From Psilocybe cubensis (Eukaryota), in assembly GCA_017499595.2 (NCBI GenBank), contig CM038999.1, positions 1,674,001 through 1,738,000 of the forward strand: a DNA stretch of 64,000 bases. Reading direction: 5' to 3'. The notes beneath the pieces are model-generated. The model was not told the origin of the DNA. It did no database searches and was given only the letters and a program-made list of their open reading frames with translations. Shown piece by piece: positions 8,190 to 15,571 of this stretch. The first letter of the stretch is position 1. Every line of letters starts with the position of its first letter. Made by a program: the position numbers and the translations under genes.

Positions 8190-9587
8190 TCATTCTGCTG
8201 ATTTCGGAAATGACGATTCTAGGTAATGTAGGTCGAGTTGGTTGGTCTTGAAGAAGCATTTCGAGAATATGATATCAGCATGACGCAGCGGCGCACATCT
8301 TTGCTGCTTTTGGTCAGACAAACTGATGGAAGTACGTGATTCCAGCGTTTGGGCAAGTGCCCCGTCAGTGCACTCAACGACGCGGTGTAAGATAAGCGTG
8401 GTGAGATTGTTACACAGTGTGGCATGGTAAGTGAATGGGTCGGGTAAGGTTTGTGCGCGCAACATTTCCAGGAGGGTGTCACCCACACAAATGTCTCCTC
8501 GGGCGTCGTATACCTCGAGCCGCCTAAGCGACGTTGAACAATCCTGTAGACACTGGATAAGCTGGTCCTGAGATATTCCTGTGTATTCCAGCATGAGGGA
8601 TTGTAGATGGGATGCTGACCGCGTGATTAGATTATGAAAAGATGCCTGGGGCCATTTAACGTGGTCGATGAAACCGCAAGTGAAATTAAAATGGATCAAC
8701 TTAGGCACAAATATGCGCTCCATGAGTAGTGATAGGCCTTCATCGAGCTTCAGTTGATAGATAGTTAGTGATTCGAGATAGGGGAGATGGGTATAAGGTA
8801 GTCGATCGTGCAAGGCGGGACCTTGTTGGCTTGAAATTGAATTGTTGGGCTCAAACAAGAGCTCCGGGTTATACGAGAAATGGCGTAAGTCCAAGTTAAC
8901 TAGATTATCGCATCTCTGTAGAATCTCCAACGCGGTTTTAAGCGTGATCCATGTGTCGAGCAAAATATCGGTGAGATTGGCCCATGATACACGAAGATGC
9001 TGCATTCCGCTATCAAAGGGTGCATCCCATGAGCCCCATGAGCACCTGTTACTCCACTGTAATGTTCTTAGAGCGGGTGCATGACGCAGAAGAGTGTTAA
9101 TACTTTGCGCTTCTTCCATTGACCAATTACCGATCTTGAATGACAGCAACTCGAGATTGGGTGCCTGGGATGAACAGAACTCGGCGAAGAGTCTGTTAGA
9201 CGCTGGAAGAGTCATTGAAAGTCGGACCCAACGCTCTGATACATTAGAAAGCATATGCAGAATTGTCTGAACGATCTCACGCGCTTCTCGATTCAGATGA
9301 GAGAAAGGGTCAATCCATACAGTTATCGTAAGTGGTTGGAACGCCGAGCGTTTGAGCCATAGCTCAACTATGCAGGGATGGTTCATGCCGGTTGCGTGTG
9401 ATACGTTTATTCTCAGAGATGACCAAAGACTCGAATCGGAAACGGCCACATGTCTCCAGGTTCTGCAAACCTGTATGAGGAGCATAGGGCCGGTGTTAGA
9501 TGATATCGGATTGTCATCATGGTCTGAAGACAGCGTCCTCCTGAAGATATCTGACAGAATTTCTGGAGGAATTAAGTAAATGGACAT
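8190..9587 (-). CDS. F-box-like protein with LRR/RNI-like C-terminus (agaricomycete expanded family), single exon
   Basis: 465-aa ORF; N-terminal IPPEILSDIF...PMLLIQVCRTWRHVAVSDSSLWSSL F-box-like motif followed by LxxLxL repeats. Confidence 0.85.
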   Translation of the reverse strand: MSIYLIPPEILSDIFRRTLSSDHDDNPISSNTGPMLLIQVCRTWRHVAVSDSSLWSSLRINVSHATGMNHPCIVELWLKRSAFQPLTITVWIDPFSHLNREAREIVQTILHMLSNVSERWVRLSMTLPASNRLFAEFCSSQAPNLELLSFKIGNWSMEEAQSINTLLRHAPALRTLQWSNRCSWGSWDAPFDSGMQHLRVSWANLTDILLDTWITLKTALEILQRCDNLVNLDLRHFSYNPELLFEPNNSISSQQGPALHDRLPYTHLPYLESLTIYQLKLDEGLSLLMERIFVPKLIHFNFTCGFIDHVKWPQASFHNLITRSASHLQSLMLEYTGISQDQLIQCLQDCSTSLRRLEVYDARGDICVGDTLLEMLRAQTLPDPFTYHATLCNNLTTLILHRVVECTDGALAQTLESRTSISLSDQKQQRCAPLRHADIIFSKCFFKTNQLDLHYLESSFPKSAE

Positions 9588-10195
9588 GGGAGTGGATCGA
9601 AAAGTGTGTGCTGCAAGTTCCCGACTCGATAATTAGAAGTCTAATTATAGCGTGCAATCTTATCTAGACCAACCGTGGCGGTGTAAATGAGATGAGCACG
9701 TGATAACTAGCACGCCATAGCACGCAATCGTCTGAGTTTGAACGCGAGTACTTATAGCTTGGATATTTCGGACGCGACGCGTTTCTGCCTTTCCTCCTCC
9801 CCTCCATCCATGTTCAAATCCCCGTCCCCGTCCCCGTCCTCCTTTTCTCGCTTTTGGAACGTGTCTTTCTCATTAACGAAGCACCTGGTCGACCCACATG
9901 ATCAACGTGATCATTTTCAATGTCCGACGGCGGGTGTAAACCATGACCCAGTGAGCCAGGCTTCACTTTGAGCGCGGACCTCCTTGGGTGCCCTCAAATG
10001 GTTGGGGATTGGGGATTTTTTATCGGATCTCCGGCCCAATCATATCGTTCATCAGCATCCGATTTCTTCCGCAAGTCACTTTACCTGCCTACTCGAGTAG
10101 TCTAGTGTGACTTTTGTACGTATCAATTTGTTATCGTTACGTTGGCAAAATGCTATAAAATGAGTGTTTTTCTGTATCTCTTGGTCACTCGCAAA

Positions 10196-12471
10196 ATGGT
10201 TTCTTCTCAGTCTTCCTCCGCATCTTCTCGCTCTGGCTCGCCAGACACCCGTGGAACAACTCCCTCCACCAGCTCTGAGTCTTTGCATTTGAGGGAAACT
10301 TATGCTGCTATCTCGATTTCTCAGTGCACTCCCGGCATTGTGCAACTGGTCTTCGATAAGCATGCGTCTTGCAACCGATTAGGCCTGTTGGTTGGCGAGA
10401 ATCCCTTTTCAAGGGAAGAGTCTTCGTCTGTGCATCACCTCCCTGATGGTTCGACATACGCCATTTCATGCACATATCAGCGCTTCACTTGCGTGCGTTT
10501 TTTCATCCCCAAGTTCGGGTCTTAGATATTAACCACTGAGGACAAACAGCCGAAGCCAGTCGTTAGCACAGATCCCGTGGAAGCTTTTCGTCATACTCTT
10601 TTTTCTTCCATCTCTCTTCGGTCCATTTTTTCTACTCATGTTAGCGACGAGATCACCTTGTACATCCTTGAGAGACCCCCGTTCGTCTACCCACCCCTTA
10701 GACATACGATTGCTAGCAGCCTTGCAGTCTCTGCCGATGGAACCTCGGGCAACATCCCTACTCTCGAAGACTGGAAGACACTATGGGCGAATTGGGATCT
10801 TATCACTCTCGAGATGATCCCTCCCTCTATGCTCCACCAGAAGCCTATTGACTTAAGACATAAATGTCTTTTCTATATAGGTCACATTCCAACGTAATGT
10901 CTCTCTAATGCCGGTTCATTTATCTGAATCCTCATTGTTCATTCAAGATTCTTGGATATGCTCATTTCCAAGTCCATCGGTGGTCAACCCACTGAACCAA
11001 AGTACTTCTGGAACATCTTTGAGGTATTAATCATTGCATTTTTGAGGAAGCTCAATTGACGTCGTTATCTTCGTTAAGAGAGGCATCGACCCTCACGTTG
11101 ACGATCCTGATCATTGTCACGTAGGTGACTGTCCTCCAAATTCGTGGACTTTTGATAACTCACGTCTTTCATGTTTCAGAATCATTCAGAAGTTCCAGAG
11201 AAAGATGAAGATTGGCCTACACTCGAAGCTATCATAGGGTTCCGCAATGGGGTCCGTGCCCGCCTCGAATGCCTTTATGACGATCTCGCCACCGGCAAGC
11301 GTACGCTCACGCGTAACATTGCAAGAACTTTGGTCATGACATACGAGCATGAAGGTTTTCATGTAGAAGTTGGTCTTCTATTCTACAAATGCGCTAACAA
11401 CCCTGCTCACCTGCTATTACCAATCCCAGACACTCTTGTACATGCTTATTCAACGAGCGTGCAGTGGTACCCTCCCTCCGCCAGGTTTTACAGTTCCGCT
11501 TTGGGAAGAGCTTGCAGAGCAATGGGCCTCTTTACCTACACCTAGCACCTCTACCGTCGTGGTGGAACCTGCAAATCTGATCTTGGGTCATAACGACTCT
11601 GAAGGGGACGACAAACTTCCTCATCTATCAGAAAGTACTGTTCAAGGTCACACTTTTGGGTGGGATAACGAGAGCCCTGCTCGCCAGGTGCATGTGGAAG
11701 CTTTCAAAGCTGAGTGGCGCCCAGTGACAAATGGAGAGTTTGAACGCTTTTGGAGAGGACCCGGGAAAAACCTTGTTCAGGTACCCAAAAGTTGGGTTGT
11801 AGATGAACAGGGTGCTGTCCAGGTATGCACTATAAAATGCCAATGATATTTTAACTGATAGTTTCTCCTGCTATCCTCCTAGGTGCTCACCATGTACGGT
11901 CTCGTTACCATGCAAGTTGCAGAACACTGGCCAGTGCTTACCTCGTATGATGACCTTGAGGCATACGCCAAATTTAAAGGTGGCAGACTTCCTACTGAGC
12001 CTGAGTTGAGGCTCTTCCTAGACCTTTACGATGTCGGCCACGAAGGTGGGGCCAATGTAGGCTTCCGAAACTGGCATCCTGTCCCGTATGTAGCTCTTTC
12101 GATATTTGAAGGAAGTTGGTTTATTAAATGTTTTGTTCAGGGCGACCACGGGACTAGCAGAGTATGCCGGTAAAGGCTCAAATGGTGGAATCTGGGAATG
12201 GACTAGCACAGCATTTGACACTCACGATGGACTCGTACCAACACAGCTCTTCACTGGATATTCAACCGATTTCTTCGATGGAAAACATCAGGTTGCGGTG
12301 AGTCTGCTCAGTATTTGCTGGCTGTCGGGTTTCCTAATATTCGCTTTGTAATAGCTTGGTGCTTCGTACGCGACCATCCCTCGATTGGCAGGGCGTCGCA
12401 CCGTCAGAAATTTCTATCAACATAATTATCCGTATCCGTGGATTGGGGCCAGAGTAGTGTATGACCTTTAA
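10196..12471 (+). CDS. Egt1/EgtB-family non-heme iron enzyme (DinB_2 + FGE-sulfatase domains) lacking the histidine methyltransferase domain; predicted ergothioneine-synthase-derived cysteine dioxygenase
   Basis: Spliced KPIDLRHKCLFYIGHIPTFLD, FERGIDPHVDDPDHCHNHSEVP, EHEGFHVETLLYML (His triad), FGWDNESPAR, GGRLPTEPEL, GGIWEWTST, QLFTGYSTDFFDGKH, NFYQHNYPYPWIGARVVYDL*. Confidence 0.88.
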
Positions 12472-12644: not shown

Positions 12645-13799
12645 TTATGATTCAAGCAGATAAAACCATATGCCAAAGAGTATGTTGGCGCAAAAACCGA
12701 TAACGATTGCCATCGACATTTGGGTTCTGGAAGTTATATGTCAATTATCGTTAGAACGCTGGCGCAAAGTTTTGCGTGCACATACGAAATAATAGTATTG
12801 GAGGTCGGCTCTTGTTCAGTTCCATCCTCCCAGAATGCCGCAGGTTTCTCTGTACCCCAGAAGAAAAAGGGAAGGAAAGGAAAGAAGAACCCAGTCAGGA
12901 CACCTTGAAGCAATGAAAAGTCACCTAGGCCTAATGGCCCTGATGGGGTGGAGTTTTCCATCCATTGCTCCTCCAAAATACGGGCATGCTCGTCATCTGT
13001 AACATGAAACGACAGAATATGTAAGTCCTCCCTTGCATATAAGTGTAGGTGTTAATGAATGGAACCGACATTCTTCCTGTGTTGCAAAATCGGTGTCCAG
13101 ATAGTTAGAGATTGATTGGTTATGAAATTGCTCTCTTATAGTCGCTATTTCTGCTGCAGAAAACCCAACCGAGGCCAGCCTATCAAATCCACGTACAGGC
13201 TGTATTTGTGAAGTCTGAAAGGGGTTTTTTAGTGATGATCAAGATGAGGATAATACGGTTAAACAAACCTGTACATCCTCCTCTACCCCGCGCTCAATAA
13301 CAGGACCGACGGAGCAGTGTATCCAAGCAGTGGACGCATCCCCCCTCATCGTGTCCGTATCCCCGCCGGCAATAGGTTCTTGATCGTCTTTATTGGTCCG
13401 TTGCTGTCGTTCGTCTAGAGAGGCTAGCCATGCATATACAAAAGTAGAGTCGGGAAGCAGACGACCAGAATGAATTAGCCTCAGTCGGTTCTTCTGGAGG
13501 TCAGGCCGCATTTGTCGAATCTATATAGATGCCAGAGAAGTACTTCAGTGGATGGCTCAGGCCAAAAGGTATAAAGAGGATAATGAAATGAACTTTACAC
13601 GTTGTTTTACATCCAGCACGGAGTCCAATTTGTCTATACGCACAGTAAGGTCTGGTGTGCCCTCTGTGAAGCGTATGACAAGATTCCGTGACTCCGCATC
13701 GGGAAAGCCGTTGGAAGAATCCTGGCATTCTGCGTCGTCTGTTACATGCGGGAGAGGGTCTACTGCTCGCTGCTTTCCCTTGGCTCGGTCGCTAAGCAT
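12645..13799 (-). CDS. DSC3: DSC E3 ubiquitin ligase complex subunit 3 (ubiquitin-like DUF2407 domain + UBA-like + C-terminal TM)
   Basis: RLRLIHSGRLL ubiquitin-like motif, WIHCSVG, GFDRLASVGFSAAEIATIREQF, LEEQWME, hydrophobic C-terminus ending GIWFYLLES*. Confidence 0.82.
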
Positions 13800-14262
13800 A
13801 TTCAGTGGCGGCGTACGAAGAATGGGTAAGTCGTGTGTTCGTCTACACCTTAGTCGGGAGTACAGGTGCTCAGAAATAAGTTGCGCGCTCGTTGATGAGT
13901 TACATAATCTATACCATGGATGGTGCAGCTAGGGTCAAAGTTGATAGTTACTATTACATTATTCATATTCTACGTACATGGTCTCTCAAAGCTTGATGTT
14001 CAGTGATTCTTGTTTCAAGGAGAAATGACGATGCTACAGCTGAGTGAAGCAACCACCAACACTGCCTTCTTGGCATTGGCGGCATCCCGTGACTACATTA
14101 TTCCCCCCCATGGGGACGCGAAAGGTCTTTTCCGTACAGCTAGGACTGCAATTATCTATCGTCAAGTATAAGGCGCTGGTCCGTCGACTTGCACGTATAG
14201 GCCTGGTGCTATCCAACCTCACAACACCGCTCAAATCAGCGATAAGACTTGAAATTCCCGTC

Positions 14263-15571
14263 ATGCTTACTTTGCATCAATTCACGCTTTTCATGTCTTC
14301 TGTGTTTCTCCTTCCACTACTAGTGTCGTCACATCCTGTTCTTGTAAACTATCAATCATCTACGCCATCTCATGAAACCGTTCCTAAGCAAGTCGCAAAT
14401 GCTCAAATAACCCTGGGGGTGTTCTCGAATTCTACCAACCCCGATTTGCACACTCTACAAGCCCTGTACGATGGCAATCAGAAATTTCGGGAGAGTGCCG
14501 ATTTTCAAGCAGATGAAGCAGAGGATGAAAGTACGCCACTCTGCTATTACTTCCCTTAGATAATGTAATTGAGTTCTCCAGGTCCCTCTTTCATGTTTCT
14601 TAGCTGCTCTGACAACAGGTACGCCGGCAACACAACCAGTAACCATATCCTGATCTTACTCTACTTCCTACAAGATGGAGCCCAAACTCTATCTTTAGTA
14701 CACCTGCAGGATCTATCATTACGCATACGAATATTGCTAACCAATATTCACACCGAGACGCAAGTGTGTAAGCATAGCAATTTCCAGCGTTGGAAAGTTG
14801 TGCTTACATCGTGGAGACATTAGAAATTCTGCCATTGCATATGCCGTAGAGTCTGTTCATGTTCAACATATCATTGTTCTTGGACACTACGGGTGCAAAG
14901 GTGTCGAGACAGCTATAACGGAATCGAGCAAAATCAGTCGCCTGGTTAGAAAATGGGTCAGACCTATATCCGCCATGTATGCCATTTCCAGAAGGTCAGC
15001 ATAATCGGTTACCAGTCCTGTCTTATATTCCTTGTATTTAGAAAATAAAAAGGCAGGAGATTGTGATTCTTCGTGACTCTCGAAAGCCTCGAAGGGGTCA
15101 AGACGATGGGATCAAGACAGCACCTCCCGCATCTGACCGTTTGTTTTTTCCCCCCTCATTCATTCAGCCTAATACTGACACAGATGCTGCTAGCTGGCTT
15201 TCGAGCTCTCGTCGAAGAGAATGTCAAACGTGGTGTCAAAGAACTTCGCACCAACACCGCTATAACTCAGGTGAGCCATGATTCGACCGACCCTGATTAA
15301 CACCAAGGAATCTGACCGGCGTGCACTTCCCAAGGCTCATGCAAGGCATATCAAAACCGCAAAAAATGAGGACATAGACGTCTTTGTACATGGGTTTGTC
15401 TATGATGAAAGTACAGGGGAGGTTCATAACCTTAACATTTCTTTTGGACCCCCTGGCAAGACAATCCCCTCTGTTCCATTCAAGGCCCTTGCGACTGCAA
15501 GAAATTTTCACAGAGATCATGATCGTCCTGGTATCTCCAAGGGCAAGACCTGGGATTTTGGTGCCCACTAA
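14263..15571 (+). CDS. Beta-class carbonic anhydrase with hydrophobic N-terminus
   Basis: LYDGNQKFR, spliced FMFLSCSDNR, NIANQ, SAIAYAVESVHVQHIIVLGHYGCKGV (Zn ligands C/H/C), LVEENVKRGV, VFVHGFVYDESTGEV. Confidence 0.88.

What the first reader, a model, noticed from the sequence alone, without database searches (positions are those of the whole stretch)
10196..12471. Egt1-derived enzyme with catalytic Tyr->Phe: predicted non-cupin, hercynine-dependent cysteine dioxygenase
Seen: an intact sulfoxide-synthase module (GHIPT His plus HEGFH His pair, FERGIDP, FGE-like C-terminal domain). The segment that I recall as L-Y-P-G-Y-T-A-D-F-F in fungal Egt1 reads L-F-T-G-Y-S-T-D-F-F here (TTC at 12250-12252). 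Established: this position corresponds to the EgtB catalytic Tyr (Y377 in Mycobacterium thermoresistibile), and Y->F converts EgtB into a thiol dioxygenase. Agaricomycete Egt1 paralogs that evolved convergently into trimethylhistidine-dependent cysteine dioxygenases have been reported. Inference: this gene makes cysteine sulfinate, not ergothioneine, and automatic pipelines would likely mis-annotate it as Egt1.
Basis: partly seen in the sequence, partly recalled or inferred. Interest (0 to 1): 0.8.

Follow-up and report, generated by a model that had tools for sequence, protein, structure and literature searches.

The report
Mushroom Egt1-derived cysteine dioxygenase gene
This is an intact, spliced mushroom gene copied from the ergothioneine-making enzyme Egt1 that has lost the tyrosine needed to make ergothioneine, so it most likely oxidises cysteine instead, and it appears to be one more member of an already published enzyme class rather than a discovery.

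Summary
Observation confirmed. 10196-12471(+) is a 9-exon gene; all 8 introns are joined in RNA-like contigs. It encodes 605 aa, identical to a UniRef Psilocybe cubensis protein. The Fe ligands (H211/H310/H314), Cys-binding residues (R202/Y208) and hercynine motif (Y555/N586/F587) are intact. F552 aligns without gaps to OvoA Y406, the structural counterpart of EgtB Y377. A full Egt1 with Tyr lies on contig C6 and shares 5 of 8 introns. Among homologues covering the site, 97 of 97 methyltransferase-less proteins carry Phe and 122 of 122 methyltransferase-fused ones Tyr. The Phe proteins form one clade, so this is a single old duplication, not a Psilocybe novelty. The N-terminus is a decayed methyltransferase half. 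Best reading: a hercynine-dependent, non-cupin cysteine dioxygenase of the class I recall from Flueckiger et al. 2020 (only its citation was seen). No activity was measured.

The parts
10196..12471 (+). Whole gene, 9 exons, 605 aa: Egt1-derived non-heme Fe enzyme, predicted hercynine-dependent cysteine dioxygenase
10196..10492 (+). Exon 1 (aa 1-99): Ser/Pro-rich tail matching the Ser-rich insertion inside the Egt1 methyltransferase, then the start of the decayed methyltransferase half
   Evidence: alignment A1
10283..10744 (+). aa 30-164 (spans intron 1): degenerate C-terminal half of the EgtD-like methyltransferase; no SAM-binding motif
   Evidence: profile of Egt1 N-termini hits P0001 aa 113-154 at E 1.7e-5, best family member 1.2e-11, best shuffled control 1.9; [EV]LG[AS]G motif in 0 of 97 Phe proteins, 118 of 122 Egt1
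10550..10893 (+). Exon 2: R202 (10856-10858), Y208 (10874-10876) Cys-binding; H211 (10883-10885) first Fe ligand
   Evidence: align to OvoA_Th2 R62, Y68, H71
10948..11023 (+). Exon 3
11079..11120 (+). Exon 4: RGIDP loop; I242 aligns to OvoA V102 (backbone contact to Cys); no conserved Tyr in this loop
11180..11368 (+). Exon 5: H310 (11348-11350) and H314 (11360-11362), second and third Fe ligands
   Evidence: align to OvoA_Th2 H162/H166; invariant in alignment A2
11430..11822 (+). Exon 6: linker and start of FGE-like domain
11883..12085 (+). Exon 7: FGE-like domain; holds Y496, the only Tyr gained by the Phe clade
12141..12297 (+). Exon 8: T549 (12241-12243), F552, Y555 (12259-12261)
12250..12252 (+). 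TTC = Phe552 at the catalytic-Tyr position (OvoA Y406, EgtB Y377, SenA chain position 363)
12355..12471 (+). Exon 9: N586 (12409-12411), F587 (12412-12414) of the hercynine-binding Y-N-F motif; stop
   Evidence: align to SenA N395/F396

Best explanation
A hercynine (trimethylhistidine)-dependent, non-cupin cysteine dioxygenase that arose once, by partial genomic duplication of Egt1 early in Agaricomycetes. Shown by sequence: the 3-His Fe site, the L-Cys-binding residues and the hercynine-binding motif are kept; the catalytic Tyr is replaced by Phe; the SAM-binding half of the methyltransferase is lost; a complete Egt1 remains elsewhere. Inferred mechanism: Fe(II) binds hercynine (as a non-consumed fourth ligand), the Cys thiolate and O2. 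Without the Tyr that steers the Fe-superoxo species towards C-S coupling, both oxygens go to the sulfur and cysteine sulfinate is released. Hercynine would come from Egt1's methyltransferase, so cysteine catabolism would be gated by an ergothioneine precursor (inference).
For: F552 ungapped to OvoA_Th2 Y406, which PMC10696552 places at the EgtB Y377 position; Y406F gives more than 80% cysteine sulfinic acid (passages). EgtB Y377F suppresses sulfoxide synthesis and makes thiol oxidation dominant (PMC7897936, passages). Y555/N586/F587 match SenA's motif; installing Y-N-F in OvsA confers hercynine preference (PMC11030361, passages). 97 of 97 vs 122 of 122 split and a second fully diagnostic site, T549 vs S. 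Phe proteins monophyletic, 90 of 90, support 1.0, sister to agaricomycete Egt1 in a 280-sequence tree. Catalytic region 63-77% identical within the clade with all ligands kept, so it is under selection as an Fe enzyme. Model pLDDT 92.8 matches EgtB-IV Z 36.8 (rmsd 2.7, 400 aligned), OvoA Z 35.8, EgtB 4X8B Z 31.8. Spliced contigs. No cupin CDO (PF05995) candidate in the genome, a weak result. [quoted passage not shown]
Against: No activity data for this protein. The key paper could not be read, so its content and the identity of its assayed enzyme are recalled. OvoA Y406F still makes about 20% sulfoxide, so Tyr loss is not all-or-none. The 97/122 split is one evolutionary event, not 219 independent tests, and comes from the best 120 of 412 and best 120 of 1940 hits. 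Hercynine dependence is inferred from a motif, and OvoA has weak Cys-only dioxygenase activity.
Confidence: 0.85

Rival explanations
1. A stand-alone sulfoxide synthase (second EgtB-like enzyme) in which another Tyr replaces the lost one, as Y92/Y93 do in type II EgtB; it would supplement ergothioneine synthesis.
For: Type II EgtB uses loop tyrosines instead (PMC10696552). The clade gained one Tyr, Y496 (98% vs 2% in Egt1). All substrate-binding residues are retained. OvoA Y406F keeps about 20% coupling.
Against: The RGIDP loop (aa 236-258) has no conserved Tyr in the clade. Egt1-type proteins align best with EgtB-IV/OvoA, whose motifs lack the YY pair. Y496 ends a helix of the FGE domain and does not align to any active-site residue named in the passages read. 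A Tyr-bearing Egt1 is already present.
Confidence: 0.05
2. A thiol dioxygenase with another substrate or activator: gamma-Glu-Cys, cysteamine, selenocysteine or another thiol, or activated by histidine or by nothing.
For: Clade-specific changes lie close in sequence to active-site motifs: T549 (S in 122 of 122 Egt1), K204, L219, R275, A570. OvoA homologues oxidise Cys alone or with His analogues.
Against: R202/Y208/I242 match OvoA's free-Cys contacts, and Y-N-F is the hercynine motif. K204 also occurs in Tyr-bearing Egt1s P0232-P0234.
Confidence: 0.08
3. A catalytically dead or decaying Egt1 copy (pseudoenzyme or pseudogene).
For: The methyltransferase half is degenerate (21% mean identity over aa 30-110) and the catalytic Tyr is lost.
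Against: Open frame, canonical introns, spliced contigs. The three His ligands are kept in 88 of 88, 91 of 91 and 92 of 93 covering Phe-clade sequences. The clade is retained in Agaricales, Polyporales, Boletales and Hymenochaetales by the names.
Confidence: 0.02

Closest known systems
Agaricomycete TMH-dependent cysteine dioxygenases (Flueckiger, Igareta, Seebeck 2020, ChemBioChem 21:3082; citation seen, content recalled)
   Same: As recalled: Egt1-derived by partial gene duplication, non-cupin, in agaricomycetes, dependent on trimethylhistidine. Origin, architecture and host range all fit what was found here.
   Different: No difference found. Whether the assayed enzyme lies in this clade could not be checked, and this Psilocybe protein has no assay that I found.
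Fungal Egt1 / type III EgtB (genome's own copy P0089, contig C6 from 2235097)
   Same: 62.6% identical over aa 165-605, 5 of 8 introns shared; same Fe, Cys and hercynine residues.
   Different: Egt1 has a complete Methyltransf_33 domain and the catalytic Tyr (codon at C6:2238118).
Engineered EgtB Y377F and OvoA_Th2 Y406F
   Same: Same substitution at the same site in the same fold; both are reported to become mainly thiol dioxygenases.
   Different: Laboratory mutants of bacterial enzymes; EgtB uses gamma-Glu-Cys, OvoA uses His. Here the change is natural, fixed, and accompanied by other clade-specific changes.
EgtB-IV, OvoA, SenA (solved non-heme iron sulfoxide/selenoxide synthases)
   Same: DinB helical bundle plus FGE-like fold, Z 30-37; Y-N-F motif identical to SenA.
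   Different: All have Tyr at the F552 position in the alignments seen and form C-S or C-Se bonds.
Cupin cysteine dioxygenase (CDO_I, PF05995)
   Same: Predicted product (cysteine sulfinate) and 3-His Fe(II) centre.
   Different: Unrelated fold; no PF05995 hit to the protein; needs no histidine-derived activator (own knowledge).

Membership tests
Agaricomycete TMH-dependent cysteine dioxygenase (features recalled from Flueckiger 2020) | Egt1-derived DinB + FGE-like sulfoxide-synthase fold with 3-His Fe site | tested here: met
Agaricomycete TMH-dependent cysteine dioxygenase (features recalled from Flueckiger 2020) | Catalytic Tyr replaced by Phe | tested here: met
   F552 = OvoA Y406 = EgtB Y377
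Agaricomycete TMH-dependent cysteine dioxygenase (features recalled from Flueckiger 2020) | Partial duplicate lacking a functional methyltransferase, beside an intact Egt1 | tested here: met
Agaricomycete TMH-dependent cysteine dioxygenase (features recalled from Flueckiger 2020) | Hercynine-binding residues retained | tested here: met
   Y555/N586/F587 vs SenA N395/F396 and OvsA-YNF
Agaricomycete TMH-dependent cysteine dioxygenase (features recalled from Flueckiger 2020) | Orthology to the enzyme actually assayed in the paper | not testable with these tools
   paper not held; one Phe clade only was found among the sequences examined
Agaricomycete TMH-dependent cysteine dioxygenase (features recalled from Flueckiger 2020) | Makes cysteine sulfinate in a TMH-dependent reaction | not testable with these tools
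   needs an enzyme assay
Egt1 (bifunctional ergothioneine enzyme) | N-terminal histidine methyltransferase with SAM-binding motif | tested here: not met
   no PF10017 hit; motif absent in 97 of 97 clade members
Egt1 (bifunctional ergothioneine enzyme) | Catalytic Tyr | tested here: not met
   Phe552; 122 of 122 Egt1 have Tyr
Type II EgtB (loop-Tyr architecture) | YY pair in the lid loop | tested here: not met
   no conserved Tyr in aa 236-258; equivalence of this loop to the type II lid is my inference, not aligned in a call
Cupin CDO (PF05995) | Cupin beta-barrel | tested here: not met
   Pfam gives DinB_2 + FGE only; best fold matches are sulfoxide synthases
TusA/YeeD sulfur carriers (N-terminal module only) | Conserved Cys at the start of helix 1 (CPxP; motif recalled) | tested here: not met
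   C44 in 1 of 56 clade N-termini; any Cys in columns 40-47 in 6 of 56

The most novel reading that the evidence does not exclude
The enzyme is a hercynine-gated valve between ergothioneine synthesis and cysteine breakdown, and the decayed methyltransferase half is not debris. It is kept across the clade as a folded beta-alpha-beta-alpha-beta-beta module (weakly TusA/YeeD-like, Z about 5) behind a conserved Ser-rich tail, and acts as a regulatory or Egt1-docking domain that tunes how much Cys is shunted to sulfinate. It would be a case of an enzyme fragment recycled as a regulatory domain.
Probability: 0.08. Interest if true: 0.6.

Novelty: new member of a known kind. Interest (0 to 1): 0.25.

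Why it matters
It corrects the annotation of a conserved mushroom gene family now labelled 'C-type lectin', 'DUF323' or, once, Egt1, which matters to anyone picking genes for ergothioneine engineering: this copy would be expected to consume cysteine, not make ergothioneine. It is a natural version of the classic Y377F switch, and the clade-diagnostic residues found here (T549, L219, R275, A570, Y496) are candidates for what tuned it into a real dioxygenase. The concept itself is in print, so the gain is incremental; the physiological role in the fungus was not addressed in any paper my searches returned.

Tried and rejected
Sequencing error or strain variant at the TTC codon: rejected; no other letter in 4 runs, Phe fixed in the clade. 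Pseudogene: rejected. N-terminal sulfur-carrier idea from weak TusA (Z 4.9, rmsd 3.4, 72 aligned) and YeeD (Z 5.3, rmsd 3.5, 74 aligned) matches: Z under 8 may be a common arrangement, the model was built with methyltransferase-bearing rows, and the Cys is not conserved. No EgtD chain was listed for that part, but the part was not folded alone, so that is inconclusive. First structure model (17 sequences) was poor around the site, pLDDT under 50 for aa 494-598; replaced by a 139-sequence model. Cupin CDO search of the genome found 0 candidates, but it runs exon by exon and absence is not shown. No run is on record as RNA; X1/X2 are judged RNA from their spliced contigs. Gene neighbourhood (F-box, Dsc3, carbonic anhydrase) gives no pathway clue. 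Taxa of the unnamed distant representatives were not obtained, so the earliest lineage with the Phe form is open. Literature: the Flueckiger paper was not held by DOI or PMID; searches found only two keratinase reviews citing it; two searches found nothing; some searches listed ergothioneine papers, of which I searched only some by term. Term searches in PMC10282164 and its preprint (first 300,000 characters only), PMC11677154, PMC11237966 and PMC13645936 gave nothing on this paralogue. No supplements were read. Earlier scan findings: none.

Full report
Gene model. The window is fungal DNA. From ATG 10196 to TAA 12471, eight GT-AG introns (10493-10549, 10894-10947, 11024-11078, 11121-11179, 11369-11429, 11823-11882, 12086-12140, 12298-12354) give one open frame of 605 aa. 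It is identical to database protein P0001, labelled 'Uncharacterized protein, Psilocybe cubensis'. Contigs of two runs from one study (X1, X2; RNA is the tool's guess) show all 8 joints, while two other runs cover the stretch unspliced. Six single-letter differences are listed, none at 12250-12252.

Domains and fold. Pfam gives DinB_2 (aa 186-317) and FGE-sulfatase, both over cut-off, and no methyltransferase. NCBIfam gives sub-cut-off hits to OvoA, SenA and EgtB. A model from 139 aligned sequences has pLDDT 92.8, pTM 0.91 and matches EgtB-IV (Z 36.8, rmsd 2.7, 400 aligned), OvoA_Th2 (Z 35.8, rmsd 2.6, 403) and M. thermoresistibile EgtB 4X8B (Z 31.8, rmsd 2.9, 380).

Is F552 the catalytic site? 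In the phmmer alignment to OvoA_Th2 (8KHQ), R202, Y208, H211, I242, H310, H314, F552 and Y555 fall on R62, Y68, H71, V102, H162, H166, Y406 and F409. PMC10696552 (passages read) names these residues as the Cys contacts, Fe ligands, catalytic Tyr and a His contact, and places Y406 at the EgtB Y377 position. The stretch from W533 to F552 aligns without a gap. Against 4X8B, F552 falls on Tyr at chain position 378 and Y555 on 381 (one gap; I infer a one-residue numbering offset). Against SenA (8RYZ), N586/F587 fall on N395/F396, which PMC11030361 (passages) identifies as the hercynine contacts; it also reports that a Y/N/F triple change makes OvsA prefer hercynine. So the Fe, Cys and hercynine sites are intact and only the catalytic Tyr is gone. 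PMC7897936 (passages) states that EgtB Y377F suppresses sulfoxide synthesis and makes thiol oxidation dominant; OvoA Y406F gives over 80% cysteine sulfinic acid and about 20% sulfoxide.

Paralogue. Two exon queries each found exactly one other match in the genome, on contig C6. That locus encodes P0089, an 860-aa Egt1 with a full Methyltransf_33 domain and KLYPGYSMDFF. The two proteins are 62.6% identical over aa 165-605 and share 5 of the 8 intron positions with phase, which points to duplication of genomic DNA.

Family pattern. I pooled 229 proteins, the best 120 of 412 hits and best 120 of 1940. Of 106 without PF10017, 97 cover the site and all have Phe; of 123 with PF10017, 122 cover it and all have Tyr; 10 fragments do not cover it. 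T549 versus Ser is equally diagnostic; K204, Y496, L219, A570, T303 and R275 nearly so. Among 147 further, more distant representatives (from the best 150 of 1947), 94 cover the site: 87 Tyr, 4 Phe (all methyltransferase-less, all with Thr at 549), and 3 others (Leu, Arg, His) that also lack at least one His ligand. In a 280-sequence FastTree tree all 90 Phe proteins form one clade (support 1.0), sister to 121 agaricomycete Egt1s (0.998 in the 208-sequence tree). Named Phe-clade members come from Agaricales, Polyporales, Boletales and Hymenochaetales (names; orders from my knowledge). This is one event, so the perfect split counts once as evidence; what it shows is long retention of a Phe-bearing, ligand-complete enzyme next to Egt1.

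N-terminus. A profile of 116 Egt1 N-termini hits the C-terminal half of the methyltransferase in Phe-clade N-termini (P0001 E 1.7e-5, best 1.2e-11; best shuffled control 1.9). The SAM motif is absent from 97 of 97 and present in 118 of 122 Egt1s; identity within the clade is 21% over aa 30-110 against 63-77% in the catalytic part. The protein starts at the Ser-rich insertion in the middle of Egt1's methyltransferase (alignment A1), which maps the break of a partial duplication. Weak structural matches of aa 30-142 to TusA and YeeD (Z about 5) prompted a sulfur-carrier idea; Cys44 is in 1 of 56 sequences, so I reject it.

Mechanism. Shown: ligand set, substitution, loss of methyltransferase, presence of Egt1, splicing. 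Inferred: hercynine binds Fe as a spectator ligand, Cys and O2 bind, and without the Tyr the Fe-superoxo species oxygenates sulfur twice, giving cysteine sulfinate (0.85). Rivals: another thiol or activator (0.08); a sulfoxide synthase rescued by another Tyr (0.05; the only Tyr gained is Y496, and the 236-258 loop has none conserved); dead copy (0.02). No cupin CDO candidate was found in the genome, which fits but is weak because the search is exon by exon.

Known or new. [quoted passage not shown] The paper was not held; that it describes TMH-dependent, Egt1-derived agaricomycete enzymes from partial duplication is my recall, and matches everything measured here. Its text and supplements, unseen, would settle orthology. 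I found no paper on the Psilocybe protein in searches, which cover open-licence text only.

Verdict. Real, well supported by sequence, and most likely an ordinary member of a published class. New member of a known kind; interest 0.25.

Noticed in passing
G000:C6, L003 4968-4979: The genome's Egt1 has a 12-nt microexon (YIFE) between canonical GT-AG introns that the database protein P0089 skips; that annotation is probably 4 aa short.
   Followed up: partly
window 10160-10195 (+): An in-frame ATG 12 codons upstream of 10196 could extend the N-terminus; the RNA-like contigs cover this stretch and run upstream beyond 10000.
   Followed up: no
window about 12730-13820 (-): Convergent Dsc3 gene (Dsc3_N, Dsc3_C Pfam hits); the RNA-like contigs read on from this gene's 3' end and jump at 12726 to letters of the Dsc3 region, suggesting overlapping 3' ends.
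   Followed up: partly
window 8190-9587 (-): Divergent long open frame with an N-terminal F-box-like domain.
   Followed up: no
window about 14260-15000 (+): Beta-class carbonic anhydrase gene (Pro_CA, E 1.3e-13).
   Followed up: no
P0267, P0278, P0364 (distant representatives): Egt1-like proteins with Leu, Arg or His at the catalytic-Tyr site and at least one Fe ligand lost; two keep a methyltransferase-like part. Possible independent losses of the sulfoxide synthase.
   Followed up: no
P0083, P0091, P0101, P0105, P0107, P0108, P0110, P0116 (Mycena): Mycena members of the Phe clade share a changed C-terminal motif, RNFWQRGYGYAW, next to the hercynine site.
   Followed up: no
window 9820-9845: Short tandem CCCCGT repeat in the intergenic stretch between the F-box gene and this gene.
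   Followed up: no
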